Virus record (IMG/VR): IMGVR_UViG_3300035701_000001
Length of the DNA stretch: 64,000 bases
Source: a virus
Strand: one strand, 5' to 3'
Part shown: positions 2,806 through 41,720 of the stretch, one piece after another
Layout of the letters: every line of letters starts with the position of its first letter
Numbering within the stretch: the first letter of the stretch is position 1
Made by a program: the position numbers and the translations under genes
Notes under the pieces: model-generated
Databases searched by the model: none
What the model was told of the DNA's origin: nothing
What the model saw: only the letters and a program-made list of their open reading frames with translations

Positions 2806-3683
2806 TGGGCCTCTACGATGTGGACTACCCACTGCCTGACTTGAGCGATCCCCCTTCTGACCGGAAGGAAATGGTGCGGCAGATCATGGAGGAGGGGCTC
2901 TTCCAACCGGTCGATTTCACCTCCTGGATCTGGGAGCGGACGCTATTGACTGGCGATCCCCAGTGGTTCCTGGAGACCTCTCCGCTCCCCGACCTCCCCC
3001 TCTCCGCGATCCTCCTCGTCGCGGAGTCCGCCGTGAACGCGGAAACGGACCCCGAGAAGGCACTCGTTCTGCTCTGGCGCTACCGGGGAAGGAAAAAAGA
3101 GACGATGCGCGCCCTTGAAAAAATCGAAAAGGGTTTCGGACCCAGTACCCCATTGCAGGAGGGGAAGAGCCGGACCTCCACCGAAATTGTCCGCCTCACC
3201 CGTCGCTGTGACGATCTCATGGGCTGGCTCGACCGTGCGCTGCAGGCCCTCGATGCGATCCACCGGGCCCATACATCGGGCGGATGCTGTGATCCGGCCT
3301 GTGCCTGCTGCCTCGAAGAAGACGAGGACTGCGACTGCGGATACTGCGATGCTTCCGAAGATGTGGCAGCCTACGCAGGCAATGTCCGTGAAACCCTTCT
3401 GCACGAGAGGTTGCAGGAACCCCGGAAGCTCACCTGGGTCTGGACCGATGGGACCTGTGGTTCCCAGGCCGACAACGGGGTCCGTGTCAAAGGTAAGGAC
3501 ACGAAAGGATGGTCCGTCCTGTACGGGAACTGTCTGATCGTCGCCTTCGCGACGACCCGTACAGCCGCCAAGCTCTGTGCGGAGGAGATGGGGTTCAAAG
3601 AAATTTGGAAGAAATCACGGGAACTGGAACACAACCCCCTCGGGGACTTGTGCCATGGGTTCGGACAGGACGACGAGGAGTGA
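2802..3683 (+). CDS. hypothetical protein with Cys-rich segment
   Basis: CCDPACACC...CDCGYCD cluster; coupled start. Confidence 0.7.
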   Translation: MMGLYDVDYPLPDLSDPPSDRKEMVRQIMEEGLFQPVDFTSWIWERTLLTGDPQWFLETSPLPDLPLSAILLVAESAVNAETDPEKALVLLWRYRGRKKETMRALEKIEKGFGPSTPLQEGKSRTSTEIVRLTRRCDDLMGWLDRALQALDAIHRAHTSGGCCDPACACCLEEDEDCDCGYCDASEDVAAYAGNVRETLLHERLQEPRKLTWVWTDGTCGSQADNGVRVKGKDTKGWSVLYGNCLIVAFATTRTAAKLCAEEMGFKEIWKKSRELEHNPLGDLCHGFGQDDEE

Positions 3684-12369: not shown

Positions 12370-12662
12370 CCTGTGAAAACTGGACCCCAAGCCTCTGGCG
12401 TACTCTCATCGGCGAATACCTGGAGGTCAAGCCAAGTCTCGTCGCAAACCGGATGACACCCAACGACATGACGGCACGGCAACAGGTGGGCCTCTACCTC
12501 AAGTCCTTCGGAGGCAACGCCCTCGTGACGTTTCGCTCCCTGCCTCGTGACGTGCAACGGGGATACCAGAAGCAGTGGCCCGAGTTCGAGGGGCTCCTGG
12601 AGCAGTGCATCCAGGAAGGACCCGGAAATCCGATGCCGCCTCCTGTCGATTCGGAGATCTGA
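12366..12662 (+). CDS. hypothetical protein
   Basis: ATGA-coupled. Confidence 0.7.
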   Translation: MTCENWTPSLWRTLIGEYLEVKPSLVANRMTPNDMTARQQVGLYLKSFGGNALVTFRSLPRDVQRGYQKQWPEFEGLLEQCIQEGPGNPMPPPVDSEI

Positions 12663-12695
12663 CAGAGAGATTCACAAAAATGCAAGCAGAACATC

Positions 12696-12724
12696 TTGAA
12701 ACCGGACGTGTCCTCGGGTAGAGG
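12696..12724 (+). promoter_or_regulatory. possible promoter with degenerate operator
   Basis: TTGAAA-17-TAGAGG with half-site CGTGTCC in the same position as in P1-P8. Confidence 0.45.
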
Positions 12725-12759
12725 AGGGTGGAAACGCAACTTCCACGGAGGAACAGGCC

Positions 12760-13062
12760 ATGTACAGACCCGGATGCGTGAGACAGGCTCCGATGATGCC
12801 CGCGATAGGCATGGGGGACTCGATGAAGAGTGCCAACCTCGCGAAGGTCGAGAACGGCTTCATCGTGACCCTCTGCTACCCGAAGAAGTTCGAGCCTTCT
12901 GCCGAAGAGCGAAAGCTGATGGAGAAGTACGCCGGATCATGCGAGGGGCCTCCGCTCGGACTCGGAGAACTCGACTTCGGAAACCAGATGGTCGAAGAGA
13001 CCCATGTGGCCAAGACCTGGGACGAGGCGGTGCAGATCCTGGCCACCTGCATGGCCACCTGA
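12760..13062 (+). CDS. hypothetical protein (KVENGFIV motif)
   Basis: Open frame; true start may be further downstream. Confidence 0.7.
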   Translation: MYRPGCVRQAPMMPAIGMGDSMKSANLAKVENGFIVTLCYPKKFEPSAEERKLMEKYAGSCEGPPLGLGELDFGNQMVEETHVAKTWDEAVQILATCMAT

Positions 13063-13076
13063 CAAGGCGAGCCGAT

Positions 13077-13334
13077 CTCCGCGTTTTCCGCGTTCTTTGC
13101 GGTAGAAAAGAACGGAGGGATCACCACGAAGAACACGAAGAACACGAAGGATCGGATGGGCCGGACTCCGCGTTCTCCGCGTTCTCAGCAGTAGATTTCC
13201 TCTCCGGATTTCTACCACGAAGAACACGAAGGACATGAAGGAAGACGGAGGACCCTCTGATCTCCGCGTTCTCCGCGTTCTCAGCGGTAGAAAAGACTGA
13301 AAGAACCACCACGGAGGACGCGGAGGACACGGAG
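13077..13334. repeat. Repeat cluster R2: three imperfect palindromes
   Basis: Units at 13077 (loop 19), 13166 (loop 21), 13262 (loop 19); same arms as R1. Confidence 0.95.
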
Positions 13335-13381
13335 AGCACACCAGTCCAAACGGTTTCTCGACCTCTTGCCCATGAAACGGT

Positions 13382-13410
13382 TCGACACAGCCTGTGTCAC
13401 AGGGTAGAAG
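13382..13410 (+). promoter_or_regulatory. sigma70-like promoter P3 with operator CGACACA-GCC-TGTGTCA, heading the paralogue array
   Basis: TCGACA-17-TAGAAG. Confidence 0.8.
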
Positions 13411-13430
13411 AGGGGAGAGGTTTCTCTCCA

Positions 13431-14000
13431 ATGTCCAAAACGAAGGACAAGACCCAGAAAAACAAGGTCCGAAAGGACAAGACCCGGTTCGTCTCCGTGC
13501 TCTTGCACCCTCCCAAGGGAGATCCACAGGGACTCTTGAGGGAAGGACCACTCGGGGCTCGGCCCCCCATGGCCTGGCTCTCGAAGACGAGCGAACGAAA
13601 GCACGAGGAGTGCCTGGATTGCGATCCCTGCTTCGAACTGCACCGGGAAGGCTATAGCCATTGCACGGTGTGTGAAGAGGAATGGCCGTGCAGCCAGGTG
13701 GGTAAGGTCGAGGTTCCTGCAAGCAAACAGTGGAAGCCCTGCGAGGGGTGCCCCCCCGAGAAAGAACGGTGGAGACCCTGTGGAGGGTGCCGGGGAGATG
13801 CCATCGTGCTTGCCTGGGAAGGCCAGGTCATCGAGGGGGGCTGTACGTGGCTCACCATGAGATACCCATCGAGAATGTTCAGCACCCTTTACGTAGATGT
13901 TGTCTTCATGCTCAAAGAGCAAACCGATTTCAGTTCCCTTCGCGCGGTGGGAGAGGTTGTCCTGCTCGATGCGAACGGCAAGGAGGTGTTCGGTGACTGA
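13431..14000 (+). CDS. Array A paralogue A1 (GARPP/ALVLAWEG family), Cys-rich insert
   Basis: LLREGPLGARPP...AIVLAWEG...GEVVLLDANGKEV. Confidence 0.85.
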   Translation: MSKTKDKTQKNKVRKDKTRFVSVLLHPPKGDPQGLLREGPLGARPPMAWLSKTSERKHEECLDCDPCFELHREGYSHCTVCEEEWPCSQVGKVEVPASKQWKPCEGCPPEKERWRPCGGCRGDAIVLAWEGQVIEGGCTWLTMRYPSRMFSTLYVDVVFMLKEQTDFSSLRAVGEVVLLDANGKEVFGD

Positions 14001-14415
14001 CCCCTCCGCCATCCTGCTCGTTGCCACATCCGAACACGGCAAAGCCCTGTTGCGAGAGGGGCCGTGTGGAGCACGCCCCCCGATGGTCGTGCTGGGAGGG
14101 AAGGGCCGAGACGGTCCGGCACGGTGGCTTCCACGCGACCAGGCAGACTGGACAACGACCAATCGGAGATGTCCCATGTTGGGGCGGGATTTCGGCGGGG
14201 GCCATCGTGCCGTTACCGCTCTTGTTCTCGCCTGGGAGGGGGAAAACGTCCCCGAAGGCTGGGACCGCCTCACCCGTGTCGCGCCGAAGGTCTATCTGTC
14301 CCGTCTGAACTTCTTTCCCGACGGTGCGCTCGCCTGTGCGCGTGCGTACGAACGGGCCGGATTCGGGACCGTCGTCTGCCTGGGAACGGACGGCAAGGAG
14401 ATGTCCGATGGCTGA
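13993..14415 (+). CDS. Array A paralogue A2
   Basis: GTG start overlapping A1 stop; LLREGPCGARPP...ALVLAWEG...GTVVCLGTDGKEM. Confidence 0.85.
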   Translation: MTDPSAILLVATSEHGKALLREGPCGARPPMVVLGGKGRDGPARWLPRDQADWTTTNRRCPMLGRDFGGGHRAVTALVLAWEGENVPEGWDRLTRVAPKVYLSRLNFFPDGALACARAYERAGFGTVVCLGTDGKEMSDG

Positions 14416-14941
14416 CCCCTCCGCCATCCTGCTCGTCCCTACACCCGAGTATACCGAGGTTCTCTTCCGTACTGGCCCCTGTGGAGCCCGACCTCCACTG
14501 GTCGGTCGCTTTGCGGTCGCAGGGACCGCGAAGTGCCCTCACTGCCAGAAAACGCTTCGCTACAGCCCCCCTCCAACCGAGCAGACCTCCGATCTCTGGT
14601 GTTGCGATTCCTGCGACCAGTCGTGGTACGAACGGCAGATCTACGACTTCTCGGAGCATCGCTGGGAAACCTACCGGGGCTGGAAACCGGTTCCCATGCA
14701 GTGGGATCGCTGTGCACTGGTCCTTGCCTGGGAAGGCAAACCGTTGGAAGAAGGCCTTTTCCGTGCAGTCCGTGCACTGGGAAAGGACCATGGAAGGCTC
14801 GAACGGATCCAGGCGTACCTGAACTGCATCGAAATGAGGGGGATTCCCGATCTCCTGGAAACCTGCCAGTACCATAGGCTTGATACGTTGGGCACGTTGA
14901 TCCACCTCGACGCGGAAGGCAAGGAGGTCTCCGGTGGCTGA
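14408..14941 (+). CDS. Array A paralogue A3, zinc-ribbon insert
   Basis: MADPSAILLVP...GPCGARPP...CPHC...CDSC...ALVLAWEG...LDAEGKEV. Confidence 0.85.
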   Translation: MADPSAILLVPTPEYTEVLFRTGPCGARPPLVGRFAVAGTAKCPHCQKTLRYSPPPTEQTSDLWCCDSCDQSWYERQIYDFSEHRWETYRGWKPVPMQWDRCALVLAWEGKPLEEGLFRAVRALGKDHGRLERIQAYLNCIEMRGIPDLLETCQYHRLDTLGTLIHLDAEGKEVSGG

Positions 14942-15359
14942 CGTCCATGCCCTCTTGCTCGTCCCCCCCAAGAGAGATCCGAAGGGCCTGCTCCGCGAAG
15001 GACCCTGCGGGGCAAGGCCTCCCAATGTCCACTGGACGACCTGTCCGGTGCACGGGCGCAGTGCCCTGGTCTCCAACGACAAACTTCCACCCGCACCTTG
15101 CCCTGAGTACGCCTGCGGACCCATCCACACCCACGAGGCCCTCGTGCTTGCGTGGGACGGACAGCCGGTGGACGAGGGAATCGACCGGGCCGTCCGGGTT
15201 TTGGGTTTTCACCGGAGCCATGTCTACAAGATCGTGATGGCCCATCTGGGACTGCTGAAAGGCCCCGAGAACCTGCTGCGCTGGTTGCGGGACGATTCGG
15301 TGAATCTCGGTACGCTCATCCGGCTCGACGAAGATGGAAAGGAGATCTCCGATAGCTGA
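14934..15359 (+). CDS. Array A paralogue A4
   Basis: GTG start; LLREGPCGARPP...CPVHG...ALVLAWDG...LDEDGKEI. Confidence 0.85.
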   Translation: MADVHALLLVPPKRDPKGLLREGPCGARPPNVHWTTCPVHGRSALVSNDKLPPAPCPEYACGPIHTHEALVLAWDGQPVDEGIDRAVRVLGFHRSHVYKIVMAHLGLLKGPENLLRWLRDDSVNLGTLIRLDEDGKEISDS

Positions 15360-15768
15360 CCCCTTCGCCGTCCTGTTCGTTCCCACCGAAGAACATCGGG
15401 AAGCCCTGCTGCACCGTGGCCCGTGCGGAGCCCGGCCGCCGATGGCACAAATCAACTCTCTTCTCGTTGGTGACAAATGGGTGCCGATCTGGGTCGAGGT
15501 GACGTATGAGTATAGACCTGGATTCGCACTCGTTCTTGCCTGGGAAGACAAGTCCGTTCTCGAAGGGCTGGAACGACTGCACCACCATGCAACGGAGTTC
15601 TCCCTCGCTGAGAAATGCCGATGGAAATGGAACCTGAAGGCCCCTTCGGACTGGATGGTCCCTGACCAGGTTTTCGAAGTCGTACAAGTCGCCCGGCTTG
15701 CCGAGGAAATGGGGCTTGGAACCGTTGTCTGCCTCGATGCGGAAGGCAAGGAGATCTCCCATGGCTGA
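15352..15768 (+). CDS. Array A paralogue A5 (ATA at the homologous start position)
   Basis: IADPFAVLFVP...GPCGARPP...ALVLAWED...LDAEGKEI; alternative ATG at 15334. Confidence 0.75.
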   Translation: MADPFAVLFVPTEEHREALLHRGPCGARPPMAQINSLLVGDKWVPIWVEVTYEYRPGFALVLAWEDKSVLEGLERLHHHATEFSLAEKCRWKWNLKAPSDWMVPDQVFEVVQVARLAEEMGLGTVVCLDAEGKEISHG

Positions 15769-16195
15769 TCTCTTCGCCGTCCTGCTCGTCCCCTCTCCCG
15801 AGCACCTGGAACTCACGCTCGATGGTCCCTACGGAGCCCGGCCCCCAACGGCCCGTGCCTTCACGTGCCCCGTGCACGGTCGGGGCCCCTGGTACGTCCA
15901 CAACTACGCGCTGAGCACACGCTGCTGCAGTTCCGTGAAGGCAGATTCCACCTGTACGAAAGATTGTCCTCCCACCGTCGGCCTCGTGCTGGCCTGGGAC
16001 GGAAAACCCATCGAGATGGGCATGTTCTATGCAGTACGCGCTCTCGAAAAAGCCATCGGTAGACGCCACGAAATTTTTGTGTCCTGGCACTGTGTCGACA
16101 TGGACAACGTGAGGAATCTGCGACATGACTGCCTTGGCCATGAACTTGGAAAGTTCCTCAGTCTAAACGCCGATGGACGGGAGATGAACCCATGA
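15761..16195 (+). CDS. Array A paralogue A6
   Basis: MADLFAVLLVP...GPYGARPP...CPVHG...GLVLAWDG...LNADGREM. Confidence 0.85.
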   Translation: MADLFAVLLVPSPEHLELTLDGPYGARPPTARAFTCPVHGRGPWYVHNYALSTRCCSSVKADSTCTKDCPPTVGLVLAWDGKPIEMGMFYAVRALEKAIGRRHEIFVSWHCVDMDNVRNLRHDCLGHELGKFLSLNADGREMNP

Positions 16196-17262
16196 GCGAT
16201 GTGGGAACTCCCATTCTACTGACGCGAGACGCCTTCCGAACTGCCGTGTTCGAGCGGGACCAGTACCGGTGTGTGCTCTGCGAAAAACCAGCCGCCGATG
16301 CCCATCATATCCTCGACCGTCGTCTCTGGCCCGACGAGGGCTACTACCTGGAAAACGGGGCCTCGGTCTGCCCCGAGCACCACATCCTATGTGAACAGAC
16401 CGTAGTCTCCTGCGAGGAACTCCGGGAACGGTGTGGTATTACCCACGCCATCCTTCCTCCGCACCTCTACGATGACGGGGACTCCCACTATGACAAGTGG
16501 GGCAACCCGATCCTCTCGAACGGAATGCGGATGCGGGGGGAACTGTTCTTCGACGAGTCCGTCCAGAAAGTCCTCGTGGAAGGAAGGGTTCTCGGCCTCT
16601 TCACCCAGTACGTGAAATATCCGAGGACGTACCACCTCCCCTGGAGTCCTGGAGTCACAAAAGACGACCGGGTGCAGACCGATCTTTCGGCCTTCAAGGG
16701 GCAGGAGGTGGTGGCAACCGTCAAGATGGACGGGGAAAACACGACTTTTTACCGGAACTATATCCACGCCCGGTCCCTGGAGTACCGGCCACGGGTAGAC
16801 CGCGACCGGGTGAAAGCCCTCCATGCGGTCCTTTCCCACGAGATCCCTTATGGATGGCGCATTTGCGGCGAAAACCTCTGGGCAGAGCACAGCATCCGCT
16901 ACGAGCACCTTCCGTCCATCTTTCAGGTCTTCTCGGTCTGGGACGATCAAAACCACTGCCTTCCGTGGGACGAAACGGTGGAATGGGTAGCCATGCTCGA
17001 TCTACATATGGTTCCAGTGCTGTACCGAGGCCCTTGGGATGAAGCCCGTGTCCGGTCGCTCTATGTCCCGACGTTTCAAGACGAAGCGTGCGAGGGGTTC
17101 GTGATTCGAGTCACTGCAGGGTTCCGCTATGGGGAATTCCGCCGGAAAGTCGCCAAGTACGTCCGGGAGGGGCATGTCCGGACACAGGCCCATTGGACCC
17201 GTTCCATCCGACCCAATGGTCTTCGGATCGATACTGAAGGAAAGGAGACTCCCCATGTCTGA
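16192..17262 (+). CDS. HNH-like domain fused to an ATP-dependent RNA ligase
   Basis: N-term RDQYRCVLC...AHHI...NGASVCPEHH; ligase motifs YPRTYHLPWSPG, KMDGEN (I), ICGE (III), FQVF (IIIa), EGFV (IV), VAKYV (V). Confidence 0.9.
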   Translation: MSDVGTPILLTRDAFRTAVFERDQYRCVLCEKPAADAHHILDRRLWPDEGYYLENGASVCPEHHILCEQTVVSCEELRERCGITHAILPPHLYDDGDSHYDKWGNPILSNGMRMRGELFFDESVQKVLVEGRVLGLFTQYVKYPRTYHLPWSPGVTKDDRVQTDLSAFKGQEVVATVKMDGENTTFYRNYIHARSLEYRPRVDRDRVKALHAVLSHEIPYGWRICGENLWAEHSIRYEHLPSIFQVFSVWDDQNHCLPWDETVEWVAMLDLHMVPVLYRGPWDEARVRSLYVPTFQDEACEGFVIRVTAGFRYGEFRRKVAKYVREGHVRTQAHWTRSIRPNGLRIDTEGKETPHV

Positions 17263-17650
17263 TGTGTGGACCATCCTGCTCATTCCAAAGAAAGAGGACC
17301 CGTTTGGAATCCTTCGGAGAGGACCGTTCGGAGCCCAGCCCCCGACTCTGATGAACTTCTCATCCAACCCGACCTCGAACAAGTCGGGGAGATGGGACTG
17401 CTCGGTTCACATTCCAGATCAGCCAGGTTGGAAATCTCCACCGGAAGCACTCGTCCTCGCCCACGAAAGGGGTGTGGTCGAGGAGGGGGTTGTCTGGCTC
17501 GCAATGCGGTGTCCACCGATTGTCTACGGAAACCTGTACGGCCCGATCTTCGGCATGCTCAAGGAAGGATGGGTGTACGAACCGCTTGAGGAGGTGGGTA
17601 CGGTCCTCCTGCTCGACCGGGAAGGGAAGGAGATCCAGCCGAGAACATGA
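17255..17650 (+). CDS. Array A paralogue A7
   Basis: MSDVWTILLIP...GPFGAQPP...ALVLAHERG...GTVLLLDREGKEI. Confidence 0.85.
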   Translation: MSDVWTILLIPKKEDPFGILRRGPFGAQPPTLMNFSSNPTSNKSGRWDCSVHIPDQPGWKSPPEALVLAHERGVVEEGVVWLAMRCPPIVYGNLYGPIFGMLKEGWVYEPLEEVGTVLLLDREGKEIQPRT

Positions 17651-17687
17651 AACGGGAGATCCTGTTCGAATTCTTGGGAGGTGTCCG

Positions 17688-18185
17688 ATGGGTGACGGGA
17701 AGGCGATTCTGCTGATTCCAGCCAAGGGAGACCCGTTGGATCTGCTGGCAGAAGAGGGACCCTGTGGGGCTCTTCCGCCCAGAGCATGGTGCCACCGGAC
17801 TCCTGCTCGGGTCCACGAAGCATGCCAGGACTGCGATGATCTGCGTGATCTGCACCAGGGAGAGGACGGAGACTGGTGCTTCCACTGCACGGAGTGCCAC
17901 GAGCGATGGCCCTGTCTGGAGGCTGGTAAGGAGGTCGAGCCTCCCTCCGAGACATGGGAACCGGGTGGACGGTTTCCCGATGCCCTCGTGCTGGCCTGGG
18001 ATGGAAAAACACTGGGTTACGGCTGCCTGTGGCTCGCAGAAAGAGCCGGTCACGTGGTGCCTGGCTTGATCCGAGGCAAGGTTGACTTCCTGCTCTCAGG
18101 TATCGGAGACATGCCGGGATTCCTCGGGGAGTACGGAACCGTCGTCCTACTGGATGTGGAAGGCAAGGAGGTTTCCCGTGGTTGA
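17688..18185 (+). CDS. Array A paralogue A8, insert related to A1
   Basis: AILLIP...EGPCGALPP...CTECHERWPC...ALVLAWDG...LDVEGKEV. Confidence 0.85.
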   Translation: MGDGKAILLIPAKGDPLDLLAEEGPCGALPPRAWCHRTPARVHEACQDCDDLRDLHQGEDGDWCFHCTECHERWPCLEAGKEVEPPSETWEPGGRFPDALVLAWDGKTLGYGCLWLAERAGHVVPGLIRGKVDFLLSGIGDMPGFLGEYGTVVLLDVEGKEVSRG

Positions 18186-18609
18186 TGTGCACTCGGTCCT
18201 GCTTGTTCCGTCTCCCGAGCATGTCAAAGCACTACTGTGCTGTGGACCTTGCGGAGCCCGTCCTCCAATGGCACACCGTGCTGTACGCCCCATGGGTGCA
18301 GACTTCGAAATGTTCTGGTGTGGAGCACAACTCACTGAGACTCCGTGGGGAACTGGATTTGTTCTTGTCCTTGCATGGGAAGGGGAGACGGTTCCCGAAG
18401 GAATGGATCGTGTGACTCGCTGCGTTGAAAAGAAGGGACAAATGGTGGATTCAGAGCACGAAAAGCACAACAACCTTTTTGCTGCAAACTGGATACATCA
18501 AGCGAATTTTTCGGATTTGAACAACAAGAAAAGCGGTGTACCTGCATTATTGCTCCAGTTTGGAACCCTCGTCTTTCTCGATGCGAACGGCAAGGAGATT
18601 CAGCCATGA
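18178..18609 (+). CDS. Array A paralogue A9
   Basis: GTG start; GPCGARPP...VLVLAWEG...LDANGKEI. Confidence 0.85.
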   Translation: MVDVHSVLLVPSPEHVKALLCCGPCGARPPMAHRAVRPMGADFEMFWCGAQLTETPWGTGFVLVLAWEGETVPEGMDRVTRCVEKKGQMVDSEHEKHNNLFAANWIHQANFSDLNNKKSGVPALLLQFGTLVFLDANGKEIQP

Positions 18610-19016
18610 CGAAACGGCTTCTCTGTGCCATTCTGCTGATTCCCGCCCTGGAAGATCCGCTGGGACTTCTCCAGGAAGGCCCCTGTGGAGCCAGGCCTCC
18701 CCTGGCAATGAAGCCGGACTGCGAAATCCACGGGGCCCAGTGGATCCTCGGCAAGGAAGTTCCCTGCTGCCAGAACGCAGGACACAGCATTCTCATGGGA
18801 AACTGCGTGGAGGCCCTTGTACTCGTCTGGGACGGCAAACCGGTCCGCGAAGGGTGCGGGAAGCTGGAAGAAGCCTGGATGCCCTATGTGGCCGTCCGCT
18901 GGATTGACCAGGTTCTCCTGGAGATCCTGCAGGGAACCTCACGCAAGTCTCTCGGGGAAGATTGCCCCGGAACGCTCGTGTTCCTCGATGCCGAAAGGCG
19001 GGAGATCACTCCATGA
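18606..19016 (+). CDS. Array A paralogue A10
   Basis: LLQEGPCGARPP...CEIHG...ALVLVWDG...LDAERREI. Confidence 0.85.
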   Translation: MTKRLLCAILLIPALEDPLGLLQEGPCGARPPLAMKPDCEIHGAQWILGKEVPCCQNAGHSILMGNCVEALVLVWDGKPVREGCGKLEEAWMPYVAVRWIDQVLLEILQGTSRKSLGEDCPGTLVFLDAERREITP

Positions 19017-19423
19017 CTACTACTCCTGTCCACGCCGTTCTGCTCACCCCGGAGAAGGGGGACCCTCTCGGCCTGCTCCACGGGGAACCGTGCGGAGCCA
19101 AACCCCCCATCGCGTTTCGCGTGGACTGCAAGATCCACGGGGTTGGATGGTTCGCGGCCAACGAGAAACCCTGCTGCCTGAACGCGGGAATCCACCTCAT
19201 GGCAGGAGAGTCCACGGAAGCTCTGGTCCTCGTCTGGAAGGGAGAACCCGTTCCGATGGGGATGGACCGGGTACGTCGCTGTGGGCTCGACATCGAGGAC
19301 GACGAGGTCCTTCGGAACGCAGAAGATTGGGCGACCATCGGAATCATGGAGGGGACCGTCGTTCTGCTCGATGTACGGGGGACCAAAGGCCCTCCCACTC
19401 ACTGCAGCCGAACAGAACCGTAG
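19013..19423 (+). CDS. Array A paralogue A11
   Basis: LLHGEPCGAKPP...CKIHG...ALVLVWKG...GTVVLLD. Confidence 0.85.
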   Translation: MTTTPVHAVLLTPEKGDPLGLLHGEPCGAKPPIAFRVDCKIHGVGWFAANEKPCCLNAGIHLMAGESTEALVLVWKGEPVPMGMDRVRRCGLDIEDDEVLRNAEDWATIGIMEGTVVLLDVRGTKGPPTHCSRTEP

Positions 19424-19435
19424 AAGGTAAATTCC

Positions 19436-19903
19436 ATGAAGAAGACCTCTGCTTCGACAATGAAACGGTCCGCTCTCCTCCTGGTCCCGGATCCGGGCTT
19501 TCCCGAAGGCCTGCTCCGGGAAGGACCCTGTGGGGCAAAGCCACCCGTCCTCGCCCGTGCGGAAGGCCTTGCCCTCAAGGAATGGGTCGATACGGGCTGG
19601 GGGCCGGACTTTACCGACCTCGGACCAGGATTCCGCAACCTCCAGCGGGCGCTCGTCCTCGTCTGGGAAGGAGAACCCGTTCCCGAAGGGATGCACCGGC
19701 TGGCGGATTGCCTGACTTCCCTGCTGGAAAAAAATCCGAACATGACCCCCTTTACGTTCCTGACACAGGGGATGTCCGGCCCGATGGTGCTCGGCAAGTG
19801 CGCCGAGCAGGCGGGGCTCGGAACCCTGGTGCTCCTCGACGAGGAAGGCAAGGAAATTCCGAGAACTGCTGACCTGGAAAGGATGGAAAGGGTGGTTTCA
19901 TGA
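19436..19903 (+). CDS. Array A paralogue A12
   Basis: LLREGPCGAKPP...ALVLVWEG...GTLVLLDEEGKEI. Confidence 0.85.
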   Translation: MKKTSASTMKRSALLLVPDPGFPEGLLREGPCGAKPPVLARAEGLALKEWVDTGWGPDFTDLGPGFRNLQRALVLVWEGEPVPEGMHRLADCLTSLLEKNPNMTPFTFLTQGMSGPMVLGKCAEQAGLGTLVLLDEEGKEIPRTADLERMERVVS

Positions 19904-20181
19904 AGGATAACCCAGCCTGGATCGCAGCCATCCTGGCGAGCATTCCCCCGGCAGGGATCGTGGCCAACACCGAATACCCGATTCGTATAGGAGAGACGGA
20001 AGCCGTTCCTCCGCCGGACCCGACTCTTCCTCTGGACTTCTCGACCGCTGCCACGCCAAGACCCCGAAAGGGGTCCTTCCATCGGCCCGGCTTTGACGAA
20101 AAGGCCTTCTGGGAGAAGGTCGAGCACCGCCGGAAGAAGAACAAGGTGGCTCGCAAGGCCCGCAGGAAAAACAAGAAGTAA
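19900..20181 (+). CDS. hypothetical protein with basic C-terminus
   Basis: ATGA-coupled; RRKKNKVARKARRKNKK tail. Confidence 0.7.
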   Translation: MKDNPAWIAAILASIPPAGIVANTEYPIRIGETEAVPPPDPTLPLDFSTAATPRPRKGSFHRPGFDEKAFWEKVEHRRKKNKVARKARRKNKK

Positions 20182-20194
20182 CGGGAGAAACACC

Positions 20195-20608
20195 ATGCCT
20201 ATTGACCAGGCAGTCCTCGACGAAGCTATTGCAGCATTCCATGGAGCCAAGAACGCCAAAAAGGAAGCGGACGATGCGTTGTGTCTTGCACGGAAGCGCA
20301 TTGACCTGGCCTACCAGGAAGTACAGCAAGCTCGCATCCGATGGTGCGAGGCCATAAAAGGATCTGGACAAGAAGCCGCTTTCCTCGTTCCATGGGAACA
20401 CATTGCCTGGAGTGATTCCAAGAAACAGTGGCAACCCATGGGAGGTTCCCACTGCATGCAGGCCATCGAGGAATTCGTCCTGCTCGCAGGCGTTCTCGGA
20501 ACCTCCGTTTCCTTCGAGTTCAACGGAACGGTACTGTCCGTGGACTCTGGTTCGAACCCGAGCAGGATCGAGGTTATCTACTGGGAAAAACGGGGTGTGT
20601 CATGGTGA
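20195..20608 (+). CDS. hypothetical protein
   Basis: GGGAG SD before ATG 20195. Confidence 0.7.
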   Translation: MPIDQAVLDEAIAAFHGAKNAKKEADDALCLARKRIDLAYQEVQQARIRWCEAIKGSGQEAAFLVPWEHIAWSDSKKQWQPMGGSHCMQAIEEFVLLAGVLGTSVSFEFNGTVLSVDSGSNPSRIEVIYWEKRGVSW

Positions 20609-23277: not shown

Positions 23278-23825
23278 CAACCCCAGATCTGACCCTTCCG
23301 GGGACGATTCCTAACCTGTTGCACCGCACAAGCCCGGTCGTGCTTGATTTCGACGGCAAGCTCGTACTCGGTGTCATCGTCGGGACGGACGACCGCCCGG
23401 AGAATCAGCGAGTGGGCCCGTGGCTGGTGGCGACGGTCGAGGACTGGCCGGACTTTCCCCTCGAAGTCGAGGACATGACTCGCTCGTGCAGCGAAGCCGA
23501 GCTTTCCTTGGACCTCACCCACGAGACCGGACGGGCACACGCACGGAAATGGCTGGCAAGGCGTTTTAACTTGCCCACCGAACAAGGAACGCGGTGGCGA
23601 CAGCATAGGAGAGAGTATATCGAGGACCCCAGGTGGGTCATCGAAGGAAGTAACGCCAATTCCTCTCAGGATTTCGGGTGGCCGAAGTTCGGAAACCTGC
23701 TTGTTCCATCCCTTGCCGGTCTCGACCCTGACGATCCTCGAACACTGACCGATGGCTCCAAGTGGGTCGATGTCGAAGCTCTCCACCGAGTGTGCCTGCA
23801 GGTTGCAAGTCTGGAGACCCCATGA
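23274..23825 (+). CDS. hypothetical protein
   Basis: ATGA-coupled; 183 aa. Confidence 0.75.
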   Translation: MTTPDLTLPGTIPNLLHRTSPVVLDFDGKLVLGVIVGTDDRPENQRVGPWLVATVEDWPDFPLEVEDMTRSCSEAELSLDLTHETGRAHARKWLARRFNLPTEQGTRWRQHRREYIEDPRWVIEGSNANSSQDFGWPKFGNLLVPSLAGLDPDDPRTLTDGSKWVDVEALHRVCLQVASLETP

Positions 23826-24772
23826 TGTGTTGCAAGTCTGGAGACCACGAAATGACAACGCTTTTTCCATGGTGTGACCGACGTATCTCCGGGATCAGCC
23901 AGGGGAAGTACATCCAGCGGTTTGACTCGGCCGGAGGTGGACACCTGGTTGTCTGTATTCCCATTGAACTGAAGCACCTGCAGCCACTCATCGACCAGGA
24001 ATTGCAGACAGCCGGGTTTCAAGTCGAAGAGCCCGTCGAGAAGGAAAACGATTCTCCAGCCCCTGCCGGACAGAAGGTCTTGTACGGACAGGAGTACAAC
24101 GACGCAATGCTCCGTGGGTGTCCGAAGTGTCATGCAGCCCCTGGACAACTGTGTGCGGATCGGGGTGGGAGATTCCTGCAGCGAAGCGTTTTCCACGAAG
24201 AACGCGCACTCCCTTCCAAACCAGATCCTGTCTTTCGGACATCGGAAACCCCCTCTCCTCTGTCGAGCGTGATATGTCCCACATGCAAGGCCAAGCCCGG
24301 AGAACCCTGCTGGGAACAAGACATTCCTGGCATCACAGGACGTAGGGCCCTGACCTTGTTTCATACGGCTCGTTACGAGACAGCATGTCGTGCGGCTCGT
24401 CATCCCATGCCAGAACCGAAAACAGGCAAGGGAATATCGAAGGAAGAGGATACAGGGATCTGTATCCGGTCCCTTCCCGATGACTTGCGGGCTGATGGAT
24501 GGTCCGTCGCCGTGCACAACGACTATCACCAGGATGGCAAATGCTTCACGTTCTGGTTGTTCACAAAGGGCAACCGGGCTGTGAAAGGAGAAGGGTTCAC
24601 CGATGCGGAAGCCCTGGACCAGGTTCGCAAGGGGGTGGTCATTCTCTCGATGTCCTGTCCCGCATGCCATTCTCTTCCCGGAGTCCCCTGCTACGCGGAC
24701 ATGGATTATCCACCCGGAAGTATCCATCCCGAGCGCACCGAAGCCTACTGGAAACGGCCTGTTGGACCATGA
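23822..24772 (+). CDS. multi-domain protein with three CPxCxAxxGxxC...HxxR zinc fingers
   Basis: Three finger copies plus GWSVAVHNDY...TFWLFTKG...KGEGFTDAEAL domain. Confidence 0.78.
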   Translation: MMCCKSGDHEMTTLFPWCDRRISGISQGKYIQRFDSAGGGHLVVCIPIELKHLQPLIDQELQTAGFQVEEPVEKENDSPAPAGQKVLYGQEYNDAMLRGCPKCHAAPGQLCADRGGRFLQRSVFHEERALPSKPDPVFRTSETPSPLSSVICPTCKAKPGEPCWEQDIPGITGRRALTLFHTARYETACRAARHPMPEPKTGKGISKEEDTGICIRSLPDDLRADGWSVAVHNDYHQDGKCFTFWLFTKGNRAVKGEGFTDAEALDQVRKGVVILSMSCPACHSLPGVPCYADMDYPPGSIHPERTEAYWKRPVGP

Positions 24773-28297: not shown

Positions 28298-28926
28298 ACC
28301 ACGTCTTCTTCTCCCCTGTGGATCTACAAGCACTCGGTGGACGTATCGAGGGAGACCCGTTCGAGGTGCGAGCCTGCGATGTGGTCGAGGTCGGATGCCG
28401 GGATTGCCCTGCCTCCACGGTTTGTGATGGGGATTTCTCGGGGACTCTCTCCCCCCTGGTGCTGCCTGAGAGCGGGGCACTCGTTCTGCGCGTGTTGTGG
28501 CGAAGAATGCAGTTCCCGCAACCGTCAGATCCGATGTATGTACCTGAATTCAAACAAACCAAGCGGTACCCAGAGGGAAGTAATTGGTGTCTAAAATATC
28601 ACGGTGAAACAACCCCTTTCTGGGTAGAAGGATCTGTTCTCGACCCCTGCGAAGCTCTCGCGGCGGTACTGCATGACGAAGCCGAGAAAGCAAGGAAGGA
28701 CCCACACAAAGAAGATTTATCCGACTCGAAGAAGACCCATCCCGAGCGCGCGGGGAATCCCTGCCCCCACTGCAGTACTCCCATCACCCTGCAGCAAGGA
28801 ATGTTTGCCTGGAAAGGGAAGACCTTCAGCGGGCTCGTCTGCACAACCTGCAACGCGCTGTGGGACAACCCCGAAGACAGCTTCCTGCAGACGGCCATGA
28901 AAAACCCGATGGGGGCAGAGCCATGA
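28294..28926 (+). CDS. hypothetical protein with zinc ribbons
   Basis: CRDC...; CPHC...CTTC. Confidence 0.7.
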   Translation: MNHVFFSPVDLQALGGRIEGDPFEVRACDVVEVGCRDCPASTVCDGDFSGTLSPLVLPESGALVLRVLWRRMQFPQPSDPMYVPEFKQTKRYPEGSNWCLKYHGETTPFWVEGSVLDPCEALAAVLHDEAEKARKDPHKEDLSDSKKTHPERAGNPCPHCSTPITLQQGMFAWKGKTFSGLVCTTCNALWDNPEDSFLQTAMKNPMGAEP

Positions 28927-29759
28927 ACCGAGACTCGGAAATCGAGCGCATCGCGAAGCTCTTGCACAAAATCCGCGAGGCCTGGTGCTTTGCCACCTGC
29001 GATGAGTACGTTGCGCGAGACTGGGAGACAACTTCCGAACCCCATCGCGCTGAGTTCCGTGACCTCGCGGTGCAATTCCTGCCACAGGTGAACCAGGACC
29101 TGGAAATCGAGCGCATCGCGAGGCTTCTACACGAAATCCGAGAGGAATGGACCTTCGATTTCTCGGATGAACACATCGTGCGGAGTTGGGAAACGATCTC
29201 CGAGTCCCGTCGCGCAGAGTTCCGAGACCTTACGGCGCAGTTTCTTCCACAGGAAAGTCCAAGTACACCGGTACGGGTAGAAGTTGTCTACCCATGGGAT
29301 GTGTCCTGTCCTACTTGTGGGGCTGTGAAAAGAAGACCCTGCATTGATGTTTTCCATCACATGTCGATGCCGACGTTCCATCCTTCTCGTATACAAGCTG
29401 CACTCGACAAATCCAAGGGAAGTACCCAGGAAAAACCCTCGAAATCCCGTGTCCCGTCCTTCGCAGAAAGAGAGGGTGGAATCGAGCACTGTCCGGTGTG
29501 CGGGAAGCCGTCCGATCATGCGGTCATCAAGACCACTATCGGTGGAAAAACCGAATACCTGTGTTTTTCGCCCTGGAGAGAGGGGGAGCCAACCGAGGAT
29601 GTCGACGAGGCATTGGTCTGGAAGGGAAATGAAGCCGTGGTTGCGTGGAAAGTAGGGTGCAACTGGAGCTACAACGACGAATATACTCCGGAACCATGGA
29701 CTCCCGGCTGGTCTTGGAAACCACTACCCCCTCCCCCCACACTGGATGAAGAGGAATAG
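28923..29759 (+). CDS. mosaic protein: duplicated 55-aa domain, zinc finger, DUF551-like C-terminus (B0)
   Basis: EIERIA...AEFRDL x2; CPTCGA...C...HPSR; WREGEP...PWTPGWSWKPLPPPP. Confidence 0.78.
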   Translation: MNRDSEIERIAKLLHKIREAWCFATCDEYVARDWETTSEPHRAEFRDLAVQFLPQVNQDLEIERIARLLHEIREEWTFDFSDEHIVRSWETISESRRAEFRDLTAQFLPQESPSTPVRVEVVYPWDVSCPTCGAVKRRPCIDVFHHMSMPTFHPSRIQAALDKSKGSTQEKPSKSRVPSFAEREGGIEHCPVCGKPSDHAVIKTTIGGKTEYLCFSPWREGEPTEDVDEALVWKGNEAVVAWKVGCNWSYNDEYTPEPWTPGWSWKPLPPPPTLDEEE

Positions 29760-35570: not shown

Positions 35571-36003
35571 ATCCCCGTGAGGAACACACCGCGTGGTACG
35601 AGGATCGTCCTCGGCATCTCTGGGACAGCCCCATGAACCCAACCTCCTCGTTGTTCTCTCTCGGAACTAGGAGGACTTGTCCTCGCGCGAGTCTCCGGAG
35701 TGGTTCCAGTTTGCATCCGAGATGCCATGGCATGGTCCACCGGGTTCATATGCCTCGGCAAGGGTACCGGTCCAGTCCCCACTGGAATCCGTCTTGGAAT
35801 CGTCTTTGGAATCGAACTTGTCGTCTTTGGAATCGGGGTCGGACATTGGGTTCTCCTGTTGCGCTGGAAATACCCAGCGGGAATCTGCTAACCAGGACAC
35901 AACTCCGGACTCATCTTTTCCGAAAACCAACCAGAAATCACAGGGACATCCGGCAAGATTTCCTTGGTTTTTCTCATACGGCAGTCCAACGGGAAGCAAC
36001 TCC

Positions 36004-36519
36004 ATGACCGTCACACCTGAAGAGCGGGCTCAATGGCGCGAACTGCTGACCTACAAGGTCCTGGCTGTCGCCTGTCCCGACTGCGGGGCGGCATCGCACG
36101 TACCTTGCACTCCTTGTCATGGAACCAAGTTCGAACGCGAGTACCTTGAAATGGGTTCTTCCCATGAAAAACGGATCCACGCATCCTTCTTGATGTCCCC
36201 GAACTGGGCTGACGTGGCAAAGAGATTGCTCGATGCGATGGACGAGGCAGACACATGGCAATCCGGGGAACCGCCCCAGGACATCCACGAGATACTGGTC
36301 GCTGAACCCCACAAGATCTACGGCAGAGGCCACCGTGTCCACTACGAATGGTCCACGGATGGCCTGGGTTCGTACAAAATCTACGGCAGGGGCCACCGTG
36401 TCGATTGCGAATGGTCCGTGGATGGCCTGGGTCCGTACCCCTGGTCCCCCGACTGGCTCTGGATGTCCTTGCCCCCGCCACCCGATGGGAAAAAGGAAGG
36501 TCCTGATGGGAATCAGTGA
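36004..36519 (+). CDS. Array B member B3: zinc finger plus DUF551-like with 21-aa duplication
   Basis: WQSGEPP...WSPDWLWMSLPPPP. Confidence 0.8.
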   Translation: MTVTPEERAQWRELLTYKVLAVACPDCGAASHVPCTPCHGTKFEREYLEMGSSHEKRIHASFLMSPNWADVAKRLLDAMDEADTWQSGEPPQDIHEILVAEPHKIYGRGHRVHYEWSTDGLGSYKIYGRGHRVDCEWSVDGLGPYPWSPDWLWMSLPPPPDGKKEGPDGNQ

Positions 36520-40270: not shown

Positions 40271-40884
40271 CCTCCACACCCGAACGTCTGGCGCTTCTGC
40301 GCGCCGCCTACACCCGCCACCATCTGCCCCTGCGGGGGGTCCAGACACTGGGTGGCTGGTTCTGTACCCAGGTTGACGTGGCAAACTCCGTGTGGGTTCA
40401 CGAACTCCGGAGCGGAGCGCGCTACCTCGCAACGGTACTCATGAAGACGAGTTCCGAGGTCACGAGCATCTTCGGTCCGACTGGACTGGCTGGGGTACGT
40501 CACGGTTCCGATGGTTCCCTTGCTCCGATGGGAGAATGGGAAGGGGAACTCGATGACCCACGCAAGGCGTTGCTCGATGGAGATCTCCTGCCCGACCTCT
40601 CCGACCCGCTGACCTTCCACCTGGCTTTGCGCGAGCTTGCCGAGGCAGACGGCGTTCCCAACCGGCCGCACAGCCCCAACATCGGGTTTGGCTGGACACA
40701 GGGATCCGCCGATCAGCGCGCTGAAAGGAGCGACGAACGGGGAGAATGTCCCCCGTTCTGGACGCTCGTCGTGATGGATCCCAATGGCTGGACCTCACGG
40801 CACTACTTTCACATCGACACGGACGATCCCATCGACGCCCTGCTCCAAACCCGCATCCAGGTACACGAGGAATCAAAGAAATGA
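40267..40884 (+). CDS. hypothetical protein, paralogue of 42691
   Basis: RLALLRAAY...TLGGWFC...LLPDLSDP...TDDPIDALL. Confidence 0.78.
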   Translation: MTSTPERLALLRAAYTRHHLPLRGVQTLGGWFCTQVDVANSVWVHELRSGARYLATVLMKTSSEVTSIFGPTGLAGVRHGSDGSLAPMGEWEGELDDPRKALLDGDLLPDLSDPLTFHLALRELAEADGVPNRPHSPNIGFGWTQGSADQRAERSDERGECPPFWTLVVMDPNGWTSRHYFHIDTDDPIDALLQTRIQVHEESKK

Positions 40885-41720
40885 CCTTGCCTCGGGTCGA
40901 AAGCTGCACCGTGATGAGCGGCAGGAATCCCCACCGAGTCCTGTCCGGAGACCTCCGGGGTTGGATGGCATACCAGGGAGACTTGCGCCTGACGGCATGG
41001 ATCGAGGTGGACGCAAGAAAGGCACGGCTCACCGCTTCCAATATGGAGGCCAACGTGCTGCAGCGTTGCGACTTGTCCGAAGCGGATCTGTCCGGTTCCT
41101 CGCTTCGCGGGGCGGCGTTCCTCGACTGCACCCTGAAAAAAACCACCTGGAAAGGTGCTGAAATTACATCGGCCACCTTCATCGGATGTGATCTCTCGGG
41201 ATCCGATTTCGTGGGCGCGGACCTGGAGTGGACAACCCTGTACGACTGCGACCTATCCTTCGTCTCTTTCTGGCGCTGTGGCCTGAAGGACACGCACCTC
41301 TACTCCTGCCATGGCCCGGCCCTCTACCTGCGGTCGGACCTGGAACTGCTGCGGGAAGTCTCGGGAGGACGACTTCGGGCCTACAGGTGGGAAACCCCAG
41401 AGGGTGCCTGGCGTTCTCCTCCCTATGAAGTCGGGAAAACTTACCACGCTGCTCTCAACCGCAACCGTCGACTCGGCTGTGCTCCCGGCATCCATGCTGC
41501 AACTCTCGACTGGTGTATCGACATTGCGATGCGAGAAACCCACTGGAACGGAACCGGAGAAGCCCCGTTCCGCATCCTGGAAGTCTCGGCTTCTCCCGCC
41601 GAAGTCATCGTTCCCTTCACGCGAGCACGACTGCGGTGCTCGGACCTTACCGTGGAACGAATCGTACCCCAGGAAGAATGGCTGCATTCCCTCGAAACTT
41701 CAGACGAGGCGACTCCATGA
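40881..41720 (+). CDS. pentapeptide-repeat protein with C-terminal YEVGKTY...CxxGIH domain
   Basis: CDLSEADLSGSSLRGAAFLDCTLKKTTWKGAEITSATFIGCDLSGSDFVGADLE. Confidence 0.85.
   Translation: MTLPRVESCTVMSGRNPHRVLSGDLRGWMAYQGDLRLTAWIEVDARKARLTASNMEANVLQRCDLSEADLSGSSLRGAAFLDCTLKKTTWKGAEITSATFIGCDLSGSDFVGADLEWTTLYDCDLSFVSFWRCGLKDTHLYSCHGPALYLRSDLELLREVSGGRLRAYRWETPEGAWRSPPYEVGKTYHAALNRNRRLGCAPGIHAATLDWCIDIAMRETHWNGTGEAPFRILEVSASPAEVIVPFTRARLRCSDLTVERIVPQEEWLHSLETSDEATP

What the first reader, a model, noticed from the sequence alone, without database searches (positions are those of the whole stretch)
16192..17262. HNH-RNA ligase gene embedded in the array with array-like ends
Seen: the ligase gene is coupled to A6 by ATGA and to A7 by ATGTCTGA. 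It begins MSDVGTPILL (A7 begins MSDVWTILL) and ends RIDTEGKETPHV (A5 ends CLDAEGKEISHG). The junction gatactgaaggaaaggagactccccATGTCTGA matches the consensus gatgcggaaggcaaggagatctcccATGGCTGA. Established: phage RNA ligases such as T4 Rnl1/Rnl2 repair RNA cut by host nucleases. Inference: an unrelated anti-defence gene entered the array through its conserved junction sequence, so the array may work as a cassette-capture platform, and the paralogues may share an anti-defence role.
Basis: partly seen in the sequence, partly recalled or inferred. Interest (0 to 1): 0.78.

Follow-up and report, generated by a model that had tools for sequence, protein, structure and literature searches.

The report
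RNA ligase spliced into paralogue array
An ordinary phage RNA-repair gene (an HNH plus RNA ligase fusion) sits inside a row of 12 related small genes and has borrowed its last 11 codons, including the ribosome-binding site for the next gene, from one of them; this shows how phages swap genes at gene borders.

Summary
The 356-aa ORF at 16192-17262 is an intact HNH + PF09414 RNA ligase. It overlaps A6 by ATGA and A7 by ATGTCTGA.

- **3' end:** homology to more than 7000 relatives stops at ...PNGL(R), residue about 345. The last 11 codons (IDTEGKETPHV) carry the array family's C-terminal signature D-x-E-G-K-E. That signature occurs in 94 of 150 family representatives and in 0 of 119 ligase homologues.
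- **Junction DNA:** it is the best non-array match to an array-junction matrix in the window (25.8 bits, next 10.9). With SD, start and stop masked it still ranks 48th of 127,930 positions.
- **5' end:** the N-terminal likeness is weaker. ATGA forces codon 2, LL belongs to the ligase family, and a 97%-identical variant starts MSSEMPP.
- **Relative:** a related phage carries at least 2.4 kb of other genes between A6 and A8. Homology breaks 7 nt after the ATG and 11 nt before the A8 start.

Best reading: the ligase was spliced in frame into the coupled operon by recombination in a member's 3' end. This is known phage mosaicism at gene borders. A dedicated capture platform and a shared anti-defence role are not shown. 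Interest is moderate.

The parts
13431..19903 (+). Tandem array of 12 paralogous genes (A1-A12, about 130-190 aa), interrupted by the ligase
   Evidence: ORFs and junctions; alignment A1. The family has 850 representative clusters elsewhere, nearly all ending ...LLDA[ED]G[RK]E[VI]xx.
15761..16195 (+). A6, the array member upstream of the ligase. It ends LNADGREMNP with an ATGA overlap.
   Evidence: It is 76% identical to P0128 in relative L006.
16192..17262 (+). HNH + RNA ligase ORF (356 aa)
   Evidence: PF09414 E 2.2e-30 over residues 172-324. PHROG 24030 'RNA ligase' E 1.4e-128 over residues 9-337, plus HNH PHROGs over residues 13-69. 7159 homologues. Catalytic invariants are retained.
16192..16215 (+). 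First 8 codons (MSDVGTPI), which lie before the ligase-family core and are associated with the junction
   Evidence: The family core starts at LLTRD. Local score against array N-termini is 27, versus mean 12.6 and max 21 for 119 homologues. Residues 3-6 differ in the 97%-identical P0271. Homology with L006 ends at 16199.
16228..16398 (+). HNH (beta-beta-alpha-metal) domain, residues 13-69
   Evidence: C27, C30, H38, H39, N55, C60 and H64 are invariant in 40 homologues. HNH PHROG hits.
16705..17163 (+). RNA ligase nucleotidyltransferase domain (PF09414), residues 172-324
   Evidence: Motif I is K178-M-D-G-E-N, motif IV is E301-G-F-V-I-R, and motif V (K322-Y-V-R) lies at its end.
17227..17262 (+). 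Array-derived tail: codons 346-356 (IDTEGKETPHV) plus the stop
   Evidence: tblastn and profile homology to ligases ends at residues 344-345. D..G[KRQ]E occurs in the last 14 aa of 94/150 family representatives and 0/119 ligase homologues. C-terminal score is 35, versus mean 15.3 and max 25. Matrix score 25.8 bits.
17242..17247 (+). AAGGAG Shine-Dalgarno for A7, encoded by ligase codons K351-E352
   Evidence: Read from the sequence. It has the same spacing (7 nt to the start) as five array junctions.
17255..17650 (+). A7, the array member downstream. Its start overlaps the ligase stop by 8 nt (ATGTCTGA).
16200..17676 (+). Segment (ligase + A7 + 26 nt of spacer) that is replaced by other genes in the relative L006/L088
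   Evidence: blastn breakpoints at window 16199 and 17677. Cargo genes of the relative are listed.
17688..18185 (+). A8, the first gene of the block that is 96.8% identical in the relative

Best explanation
The gene encodes an intact HNH + Rnl2-type RNA ligase, a common phage RNA-repair enzyme. It has been spliced in frame into a translationally coupled operon of paralogous genes.

Shown:
- Its core (residues about 9-345) belongs to a very large ligase family.
- Its last 11 codons are not ligase sequence. They are the 3' end of an array paralogue and carry that family's C-terminal signature D-x-E-G-K-E.
- In this array that signature also supplies the Shine-Dalgarno and the 8-nt start/stop overlap for the next gene.
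- Its start sits exactly on the ATGA overlap with A6.

Inferred:
- A recombination event with a breakpoint at the start of the conserved L/I-D-x-E-G-K-E motif put the ligase in place of the body of an array member, or just upstream of that member's last 33 nt.
- Only products that kept the coupling signal for A7 survived.
- The ligase is therefore made from the array's transcript and hands ribosomes on to A7.
- The A6-A8 interval is a swap site between related phages, with breakpoints at gene borders. This is ordinary phage mosaicism helped by the short repeated junction, not a dedicated capture system.
- The enzyme's likely role is resealing RNA (for example tRNA) cut by host nucleases. The role of the HNH domain is unknown.
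For: - Ligase identity and integrity.
- Homology to ligases ends at PNGL(R): 80 tblastn matches end at residues 335-349, and the PHROG profile ends at 337. The C-terminal part after KYVR is 31 aa, against a median of 24.
- The tail is array-like at protein level (score 35 vs max 25; motif in 94/150 vs 0/119). It is also array-like at DNA level (25.8 bits, top non-array hit; rank 48 of 127,930 after masking SD/start/stop; 20-26/33 identity vs 21-29/33 among members).
- The 8-nt overlap junction carrying the Shine-Dalgarno motif is array-specific.
- The relative L006/L088 shares flanks at 86-97% identity but holds other genes in the slot. Homology stops 7 nt after the ligase ATG and resumes 11 nt before the A8 ATG.
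- A second haplotype breakpoint falls right after the CTCGA (L-D) of the same motif in A11.
- In an unrelated phage (L003), a non-family gene next to a family member is flanked by an exact 20-nt copy of the member's junction.
- Precedents: Island3 gp68 shares 18 C-terminal residues and about 50 bp with the upstream gene (PMC3029335). HNH-Rnl2 fusions occur in jumbo phages (PMC7824862).
Against: - No donor or empty-site genome was found, so the direction and number of events are inferred.
- The ligase tail is no closer to A6's tail than to others, so a simple recent duplication of the neighbour's end is excluded, and the lost member X is hypothetical.
- GC and GC3 of the ligase equal those of its neighbours, so there is no compositional sign of foreign origin.
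- The tail is only 33 nt, and part of it (SD, start, stop) is under selection that could favour convergence.
- The first cargo gene of the relative has only a weak junction likeness, not significant with the matrix.
- Expression, coupling and ligase activity are untested.
Confidence: 0.68

Rival explanations
1. Block transfer. The ligase and A7 moved together as one segment from another array-bearing phage, by homologous recombination in flanking family genes. The ligase tail would then have been acquired earlier, in the donor.
For: The segment that differs from the relative is ligase + A7 + spacer (16200-17676), not the ligase alone. The flanks differ in identity (86-89% on the left, 96.8% on the right), as expected after exchange. 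The ligase + A7 pair recurs in three other assemblies.
Against: A7 belongs to the same subfamily as A1 and A8 of this array (41-46% identity), so it looks native. No donor was found. None of 82 other ligase loci has a family gene nearby. This reading still needs the same in-frame fusion at some earlier time, so it displaces the best explanation rather than replacing it.
Confidence: 0.2
2. Dedicated cassette platform. The conserved junction is a recombination site used again and again to capture and express foreign genes, making the array an integron-like or PeSL-like platform.
For: The same slot holds different cargo in a relative, with breakpoints at junctions. A second breakpoint lies at the same motif in A11. 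A junction repeat flanks a foreign gene in L003.
Against: Only one slot and two haplotypes are known. No recombinase appeared among the 30 large window ORFs scanned. No promoter/terminator cassettes lie at the junctions. The other seven family loci examined show one case only. The relative's cargo includes a minus-strand gene and intergenic spacers, so it is not a series of junction-bounded cassettes. The relative's first cargo gene does not score with the junction matrix.
Confidence: 0.15
3. Convergence. The tail arose by point mutations in a ligase C-terminal extension, under selection for a strong ribosome-binding site and coupling to A7, without recombination.
For: Ligase homologues have variable tails of 0-15 residues. 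One (P0053/L008) ends AEKETATV with an embedded AAGGAG outside any array. SD, start and stop account for 12 of the 26 matching bases.
Against: Likeness persists when SD, start and stop are masked (rank 48 of 127,930). The D and E-G residues and the reading frame match the family's protein motif, which translation does not require. The 8-nt overlap with this Shine-Dalgarno motif is not the genome's usual solution, which is ATGA. 0 of 119 homologues have the motif.
Confidence: 0.1
4. Homing. The N-terminal HNH domain is a homing nuclease that cut the array and drove insertion of its own gene.
For: HNH genes are frequent mobile elements in phages. The insertion lies between conserved paralogues.
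Against: The HNH-ligase architecture, with all its invariant residues, is conserved in thousands of proteins at about 50-64% identity in many contexts. That pattern fits a functional domain of the enzyme. No target-site signature was seen.
Confidence: 0.04

Closest known systems
HNH-Rnl2 fusion RNA ligases of jumbo phages (Iyer et al. 2021, Viruses 13:63, PMC7824862; PHROG 24030; Pfam PF09414)
   Same: Same architecture and invariant residues: the HNH CxxC..HH..N..C..H set and ligase motifs KxDGxN, EGxVxR and KxVR. 56-64% identity to many proteins of phage contigs of 100-520 kb.
   Different: It carries an 11-residue C-terminal tail and a few N-terminal residues that come from an unrelated neighbouring gene family. 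It is the only one of 83 loci examined that lies inside an array of that family.
Mycobacteriophage Island3 gene 68 (Pope et al. 2011, PLoS One 6:e16329, PMC3029335)
   Same: An inserted gene whose C-terminal residues and about 50 bp match the 3' end of the neighbouring gene. The authors read this as recombination between short sequences at gene borders.
   Different: Here the shared end is the conserved C-terminal/ribosome-binding motif of a 12-member paralogue array, the inserted gene has a known enzymatic function, and the match is older (26/33 at best rather than near identity).
PeSL regulatory cassettes in hyperplastic regions of T4-type phages (Arbiol et al. 2010, PMC2839356)
   Same: Short repeated sequences between small non-essential genes act as crossover points for insertion, deletion and replacement between close relatives.
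   Different: PeSLs are non-coding promoter plus stem-loop terminator units. Here the repeat is coding sequence plus Shine-Dalgarno plus overlapping start/stop, and no promoter or terminator was found at the junctions.
T4 Rnl1/Rnl2 with Pnkp (tRNA repair against the PrrC anticodon nuclease)
   Same: Same nucleotidyltransferase superfamily. The repair role is the presumed function (my own knowledge; PMC7824862).
   Different: No sequence match to any solved structure at E <= 0.01. No kinase/phosphatase partner was found among 30 large ORFs of the window. The role is inferred only.

Membership tests
ATP-dependent RNA ligase, Pfam PF09414 (Rnl2-like nucleotidyltransferase) | Profile match above the curated cut-off | tested here: met
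   106.5 bits against cut-off 27, residues 172-324, full profile 2-171/171. PHROG 24030 E 1.4e-128.
ATP-dependent RNA ligase, Pfam PF09414 (Rnl2-like nucleotidyltransferase) | Motif I lysine nucleophile (KxDGxN), motif IV (EGxVxK/R) and motif V (KxVK/R) | tested here: met
   K178-M-D-G-E-N, E301-G-F-V-I-R and K322-Y-V-R are present; K178, D180, G181, E182, E301, G302, V304, R306, K322, V324 and R325 are invariant in 40 homologues.
ATP-dependent RNA ligase, Pfam PF09414 (Rnl2-like nucleotidyltransferase) | Adenylylation and RNA end-joining activity | not testable with these tools
   Needs purified protein.
HNH (beta-beta-alpha-metal) nuclease domain | CxxC ... HH ... N ... CxxHH pattern and a profile match | tested here: met
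   C27, C30, H38, H39, N55, C60 and H64 are invariant. Seven HNH PHROGs match with E from 5e-6 to 7e-3 over residues 13-89. Pfam PF01844 is on record for some homologues but was not reported for this protein at E <= 0.1.
Array paralogue family (unnamed; 850 representative clusters) | Whole-protein homology (LLVP..GLL.EGPCGARPP, ALVLAW.G, GT.VLLD blocks) | tested here: not met
   The ligase body is unrelated. Only its last 11 residues and, weakly, its first 8 residues resemble the family.
Array paralogue family (unnamed; 850 representative clusters) | C-terminal signature [LIV]D.[ED]G[KR]E within the last 14 residues, with an 8-nt start/stop overlap to the next gene | tested here: met
   IDTEGKE at residues 346-352 and ATGTCTGA at 17255-17262.
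Integron-type gene-cassette platform | Site-specific recombinase next to the array, and structured attC-like sites bounding each cassette | tested here: inconclusive
   No recombinase family appeared among 30 large ORFs of the window, and the junctions are coding sequence. However, small ORFs and the rest of the 204-kb genome were not scanned.
PeSL-type mobile regulatory cassette | Sigma-70-like promoter plus stem-loop terminator at the swap points | tested here: not met
   0 promoter-like sites in 12500-20500, and terminator-like sites at background level, with none at the ligase junctions.
Free-standing homing endonuclease gene | Nuclease cuts the insertion-free allele; co-conversion of flanks | not testable with these tools
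   No empty-site allele was found. The HNH-ligase fusion is conserved family-wide.

The most novel reading that the evidence does not exclude
The conserved C-terminal motif of this widespread small-protein family (LLDAEG[KR]E + 2-4 residues) doubles as the ribosome-binding site and overlapping start of the next gene. It may serve as a recurrent in-frame crossover point. Arrays of the family would then act as expression-ready docking rows, where foreign genes are swapped in and out and end up carrying a family tail. That would be a coding-sequence counterpart of the PeSL cassettes of T4-type phages.
Probability: 0.18. Interest if true: 0.6.

Novelty: new member of a known kind. Interest (0 to 1): 0.4.

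Why it matters
This is a clean, datable example of how a phage places a useful foreign enzyme into an existing operon without breaking translational coupling. The crossover lies at the start of a short motif that is both a protein signature and the next gene's ribosome-binding site, and the enzyme is left with a borrowed tail. Two practical points follow:
- The terminal residues of phage proteins in coupled operons can be chimeric and should not be read as part of the enzyme.
- The A6-A8 interval of this phage group is a natural swap site and could be followed in metagenome time series.

It does not reveal a new enzyme or a new defence or counter-defence system. It gives no evidence on what the paralogue array does.

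Tried and rejected
- **Whole genome:** not held, so junction statistics are for the 64-kb window only.
- **Metagenome scan with A6:** found only the one relative already known.
- **Viral-contig scan with A7:** found nothing.
- **Array family function:** no Pfam or PHROG match. The AlphaFold model is confident (pLDDT 86, pTM 0.77), but there is no fold match in PDB by Foldseek (best E 0.38), in the wide VIA search (best Z 2.8) or in BFVD (best E 0.17). The absence of a match shows neither novelty nor function.
- **Ligase against solved structures by sequence:** no hit at E <= 0.01.
- **Ligase-array linkage elsewhere:** no family gene in the stretches held (about 4-6 kb each side) of 82 other ligase loci. 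I therefore dropped the idea of a functional pairing.
- **RNA-repair partners (kinase, phosphatase, RtcB) among 30 large window ORFs:** none found.
- **Array-like 3' end on the relative's 73-aa cargo gene:** only the last 18 nt or so look similar, and it does not rank with the junction matrix. I do not count it as evidence.
- **MSDV start as strong evidence:** downgraded.
- **Composition:** GC/GC3 of the ligase equals its neighbours, so it gives no foreign signal.
- **DNA of the ENA contig with the 97% ligase variant and of the 38-kb Logan contig:** could not be fetched.

Full report
**What is there.** The + strand of 13431-19903 carries twelve back-to-back paralogous genes, A1-A12. They share three blocks: LLVP..GLL.EGPCGARPP, ALVLAW.G..V.EG and GT.VLLDAEGKE. 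Between A6 and A7 lies a 356-aa ORF at 16192-17262. Its ATG overlaps the A6 stop (ATGA). Its stop lies inside the first 8 nt of A7 (ATGTCTGA), with AAGGAG 7 nt before the A7 ATG.

**The gene itself.**
- It matches Pfam RNA_ligase PF09414 over the full profile (E 2.2e-30, residues 172-324).
- It matches PHROG 24030 'RNA ligase' over residues 9-337 (E 1.4e-128) and several HNH PHROGs over residues 13-89.
- More than 7000 database proteins are homologous, the best at 64% identity.
- 225 stretches in IMG/VR match, many on contigs of 100-520 kb.
- In an alignment of 40 homologues the HNH residues (C27, C30, H38, H39, N55, C60, H64) and the ligase motifs (K178xDGE, E301GxVxR, K322xVR) are invariant, and all are present here. 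The enzyme looks intact.
- HNH-Rnl2 fusions in jumbo phages have been described. Their proposed role is RNA repair, possibly with a nuclease attack function (PMC7824862).
- The window belongs to a 204.5-kb contig. Earlier notes of this scan call it phage-like.

**The 3' end is array DNA.**
- In 119 homologues the family ends ...HV.T..HW.R....PNGL(R), followed by 0-15 variable residues.
- Of the 80 tblastn matches, 77 stop at query residues 326-349 and three run to 352-356. One of these (L008) ends AEKETATV rather than DxEGKE.
- The stretch after KYVR is 31 residues here, against a median of 24.
- The extra residues, IDTEGKETPHV, reproduce the C-terminal signature of the array family. That family is not an orphan. 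A profile search found 850 representative clusters, and almost all end ...GT.VLLDA[ED]G[RK]E[VI]xx.
- D..G[KRQ]E lies in the last 14 residues of 94 of 150 family representatives and of 0 of 119 ligase homologues.
- In local alignment against array termini, the ligase C-terminus scores 35. The other ligases score mean 15.3, sd 2.7, max 25.
- At DNA level, a matrix from six array junctions gives the ligase end 25.8 bits. This is the best non-array site among 127,930 positions (next 10.9).
- After masking the AAGGAG core, the start and the stop, it still ranks 48th.
- Its 33 nt are 20-26/33 identical to members, which are 21-29/33 identical to each other.
- The motif AAGGAG-N7-NTG-NN-TGA occurs only in the array and here. 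The rest of the window couples genes by ATGA, and the few other 8-nt overlaps between long ORFs lack this Shine-Dalgarno motif.

**The 5' end is weaker evidence.**
- The N-terminal score (27, against max 21) is also an outlier.
- However, LL belongs to the ligase family's LLTRD.
- ATGA forces codon 2 to begin with A, and AGC = Ser is common at starts in this window.
- The Ser codons of the ligase and A7 differ at all three positions.
- A 97%-identical ligase from another assembly starts MSSEMPP, while its tail is identical. Its upstream genes have other sizes and are not A6-like.
- So the first few codons vary with the upstream junction. That fits a breakpoint there, but it does not prove an array origin.

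**A natural comparison.** Two contigs from one sample (L006 and L088) are close relatives.
- L006 carries A4-, A5- and A6-like genes at 86-89% nt identity. L088 carries A8- to A11-like genes at 96.8%.
- After the A6-like gene, at the same ATGA, L006 has a 73-aa gene and then a Cys-rich gene.
- Before the A8-like gene, L088 has a membrane-protein-like gene, a 72-aa gene, a minus-strand gene and an HTH_3 regulator.
- Homology to the window ends at 16199, 7 nt after the ligase ATG. It resumes at 17677, 11 nt before the A8 ATG.
- So the slot between A6 and A8 holds ligase + A7 here and at least 2.4 kb of other genes there, with both breakpoints at gene borders.
- The same block ends at 19371. The two A11 alleles are identical up to the CTCGA (L-D) of the C-terminal motif and unrelated after it. 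That is the same point at which the ligase switches to array sequence (ATCGAT, I-D).
- In an unrelated tailed phage (L003), a single family member is followed by a 96-aa non-family gene. An exact 20-nt copy of the member's junction flanks that gene.

**Reading.** The simplest account is recombination at, or just before, the conserved L-D-x-E-G-K-E motif of an array member. This placed the ligase in frame in front of that member's last 33 nt. Selection then favoured products that kept the ribosome-binding site and overlap needed by A7.
- This is the kind of event described for Island3 gene 68, which shares 18 C-terminal residues and about 50 bp with its neighbour (PMC3029335).
- More generally it resembles recombination at short boundary sequences, such as the PeSLs of T4-type phages (PMC2839356).
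- No promoter- or terminator-like site flanks the ligase, so it is presumably expressed from the array's transcript.
- Its GC and GC3 equal its neighbours', so the acquisition is not compositionally recent.

**What is not supported.**
- *A dedicated capture platform.* Only one slot and two cargo states are known. No recombinase turned up among 30 large ORFs. The relative's cargo is not a series of junction-bounded cassettes, and its first gene does not score with the junction matrix. Only one of seven other family loci shows a neighbour with a family-like tail.
- *A shared anti-defence role.* The array family has no Pfam, PHROG or fold match despite a confident model. None of 82 other ligase loci has a family gene in the stretch held, about 4-6 kb each side.
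- *The ligase's repair role.* It is inferred from its family. No partner kinase or phosphatase was seen in the window.

**Verdict.** This is a known type of enzyme inserted by a known type of phage mosaicism, with an unusually legible chimeric 3' end. Interest is moderate.

Noticed in passing
L003:2744-3107: In an unrelated tailed-phage contig, a single array-family gene is followed by a 96-aa non-family gene. An exact 20-nt direct repeat covering SD, start and stop (2808-2827 and 3088-3107) flanks that gene. The gene also contains an exact 25-nt copy (2852-2876) of a stretch from the family gene (2744-2768), read in another frame. This looks like a gene built or inserted by local duplication and recombination.
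   Followed up: partly
window 13071-13336: The 370-nt gap upstream of A1 holds three copies of a 36-nt unit, spaced about 90 nt apart; copies 1 and 3 align over 76 nt. The unit is GATCTCCGCGTTYTCCGCGTTCT..GCGGTAGA, followed by ACCACGAAGAACACGAAG-type 9-mers. It may be a regulatory region for the array. No sigma-70-like promoter was found there.
   Followed up: partly
window 15334-15359: A5 has no ATG/GTG/TTG at the canonical junction position. The window reads GATAGCTGA (ATA), whereas the relative L006 reads CATGGCTGA. The only in-frame ATG (15334) lies inside A4's GKE motif, upstream of the Shine-Dalgarno. So A5 has either a lost start or a non-canonical one.
   Followed up: no
window 19371-19423 and L088:3766-3845: A11 has an aberrant tail here (VRGTKGPPTHCSRTEP, TAG stop, no coupling). 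In the relative it ends EKKKEIPLEQ... and is followed by a 403-aa gene instead of A12. The alleles diverge exactly after GTVVLLD.
   Followed up: partly
L006:193-763: In the relative, a 183-aa non-family gene precedes the A4-like gene instead of A1-A3. The A4-like gene has a different first 8 residues (MNPNVVTV vs MADVHALL). Homology starts about 20 nt inside the gene, so this is another breakpoint near a gene border.
   Followed up: partly
Logan SRR11719878 contig (no DNA available): A near-identical 38-kb assembly has the same A3-A6, ligase, A7, A8 order. It has two short ORFs (77 and 55 aa) where A9 (143 aa) lies in the window. A9 is also the compositional outlier of the array (GC3 0.49 vs about 0.70).
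   Followed up: no
window 23822-24772, 28923-29759, 35677-36519, 44711-45691: Four ORFs match the Phage_zn_bind_8 zinc-finger family (PF24623), two above and two just below its cut-off. A pentapeptide-repeat protein (40881-41720) sits directly before a radical-SAM protein (41717-42694).
   Followed up: no
L004:8845-10390: The single family member in this 80-kb viral contig lies in a GC-rich patch of about 1.5 kb, surrounded by AT-rich genes. This may be a recent insertion or an assembly chimera.
   Followed up: no
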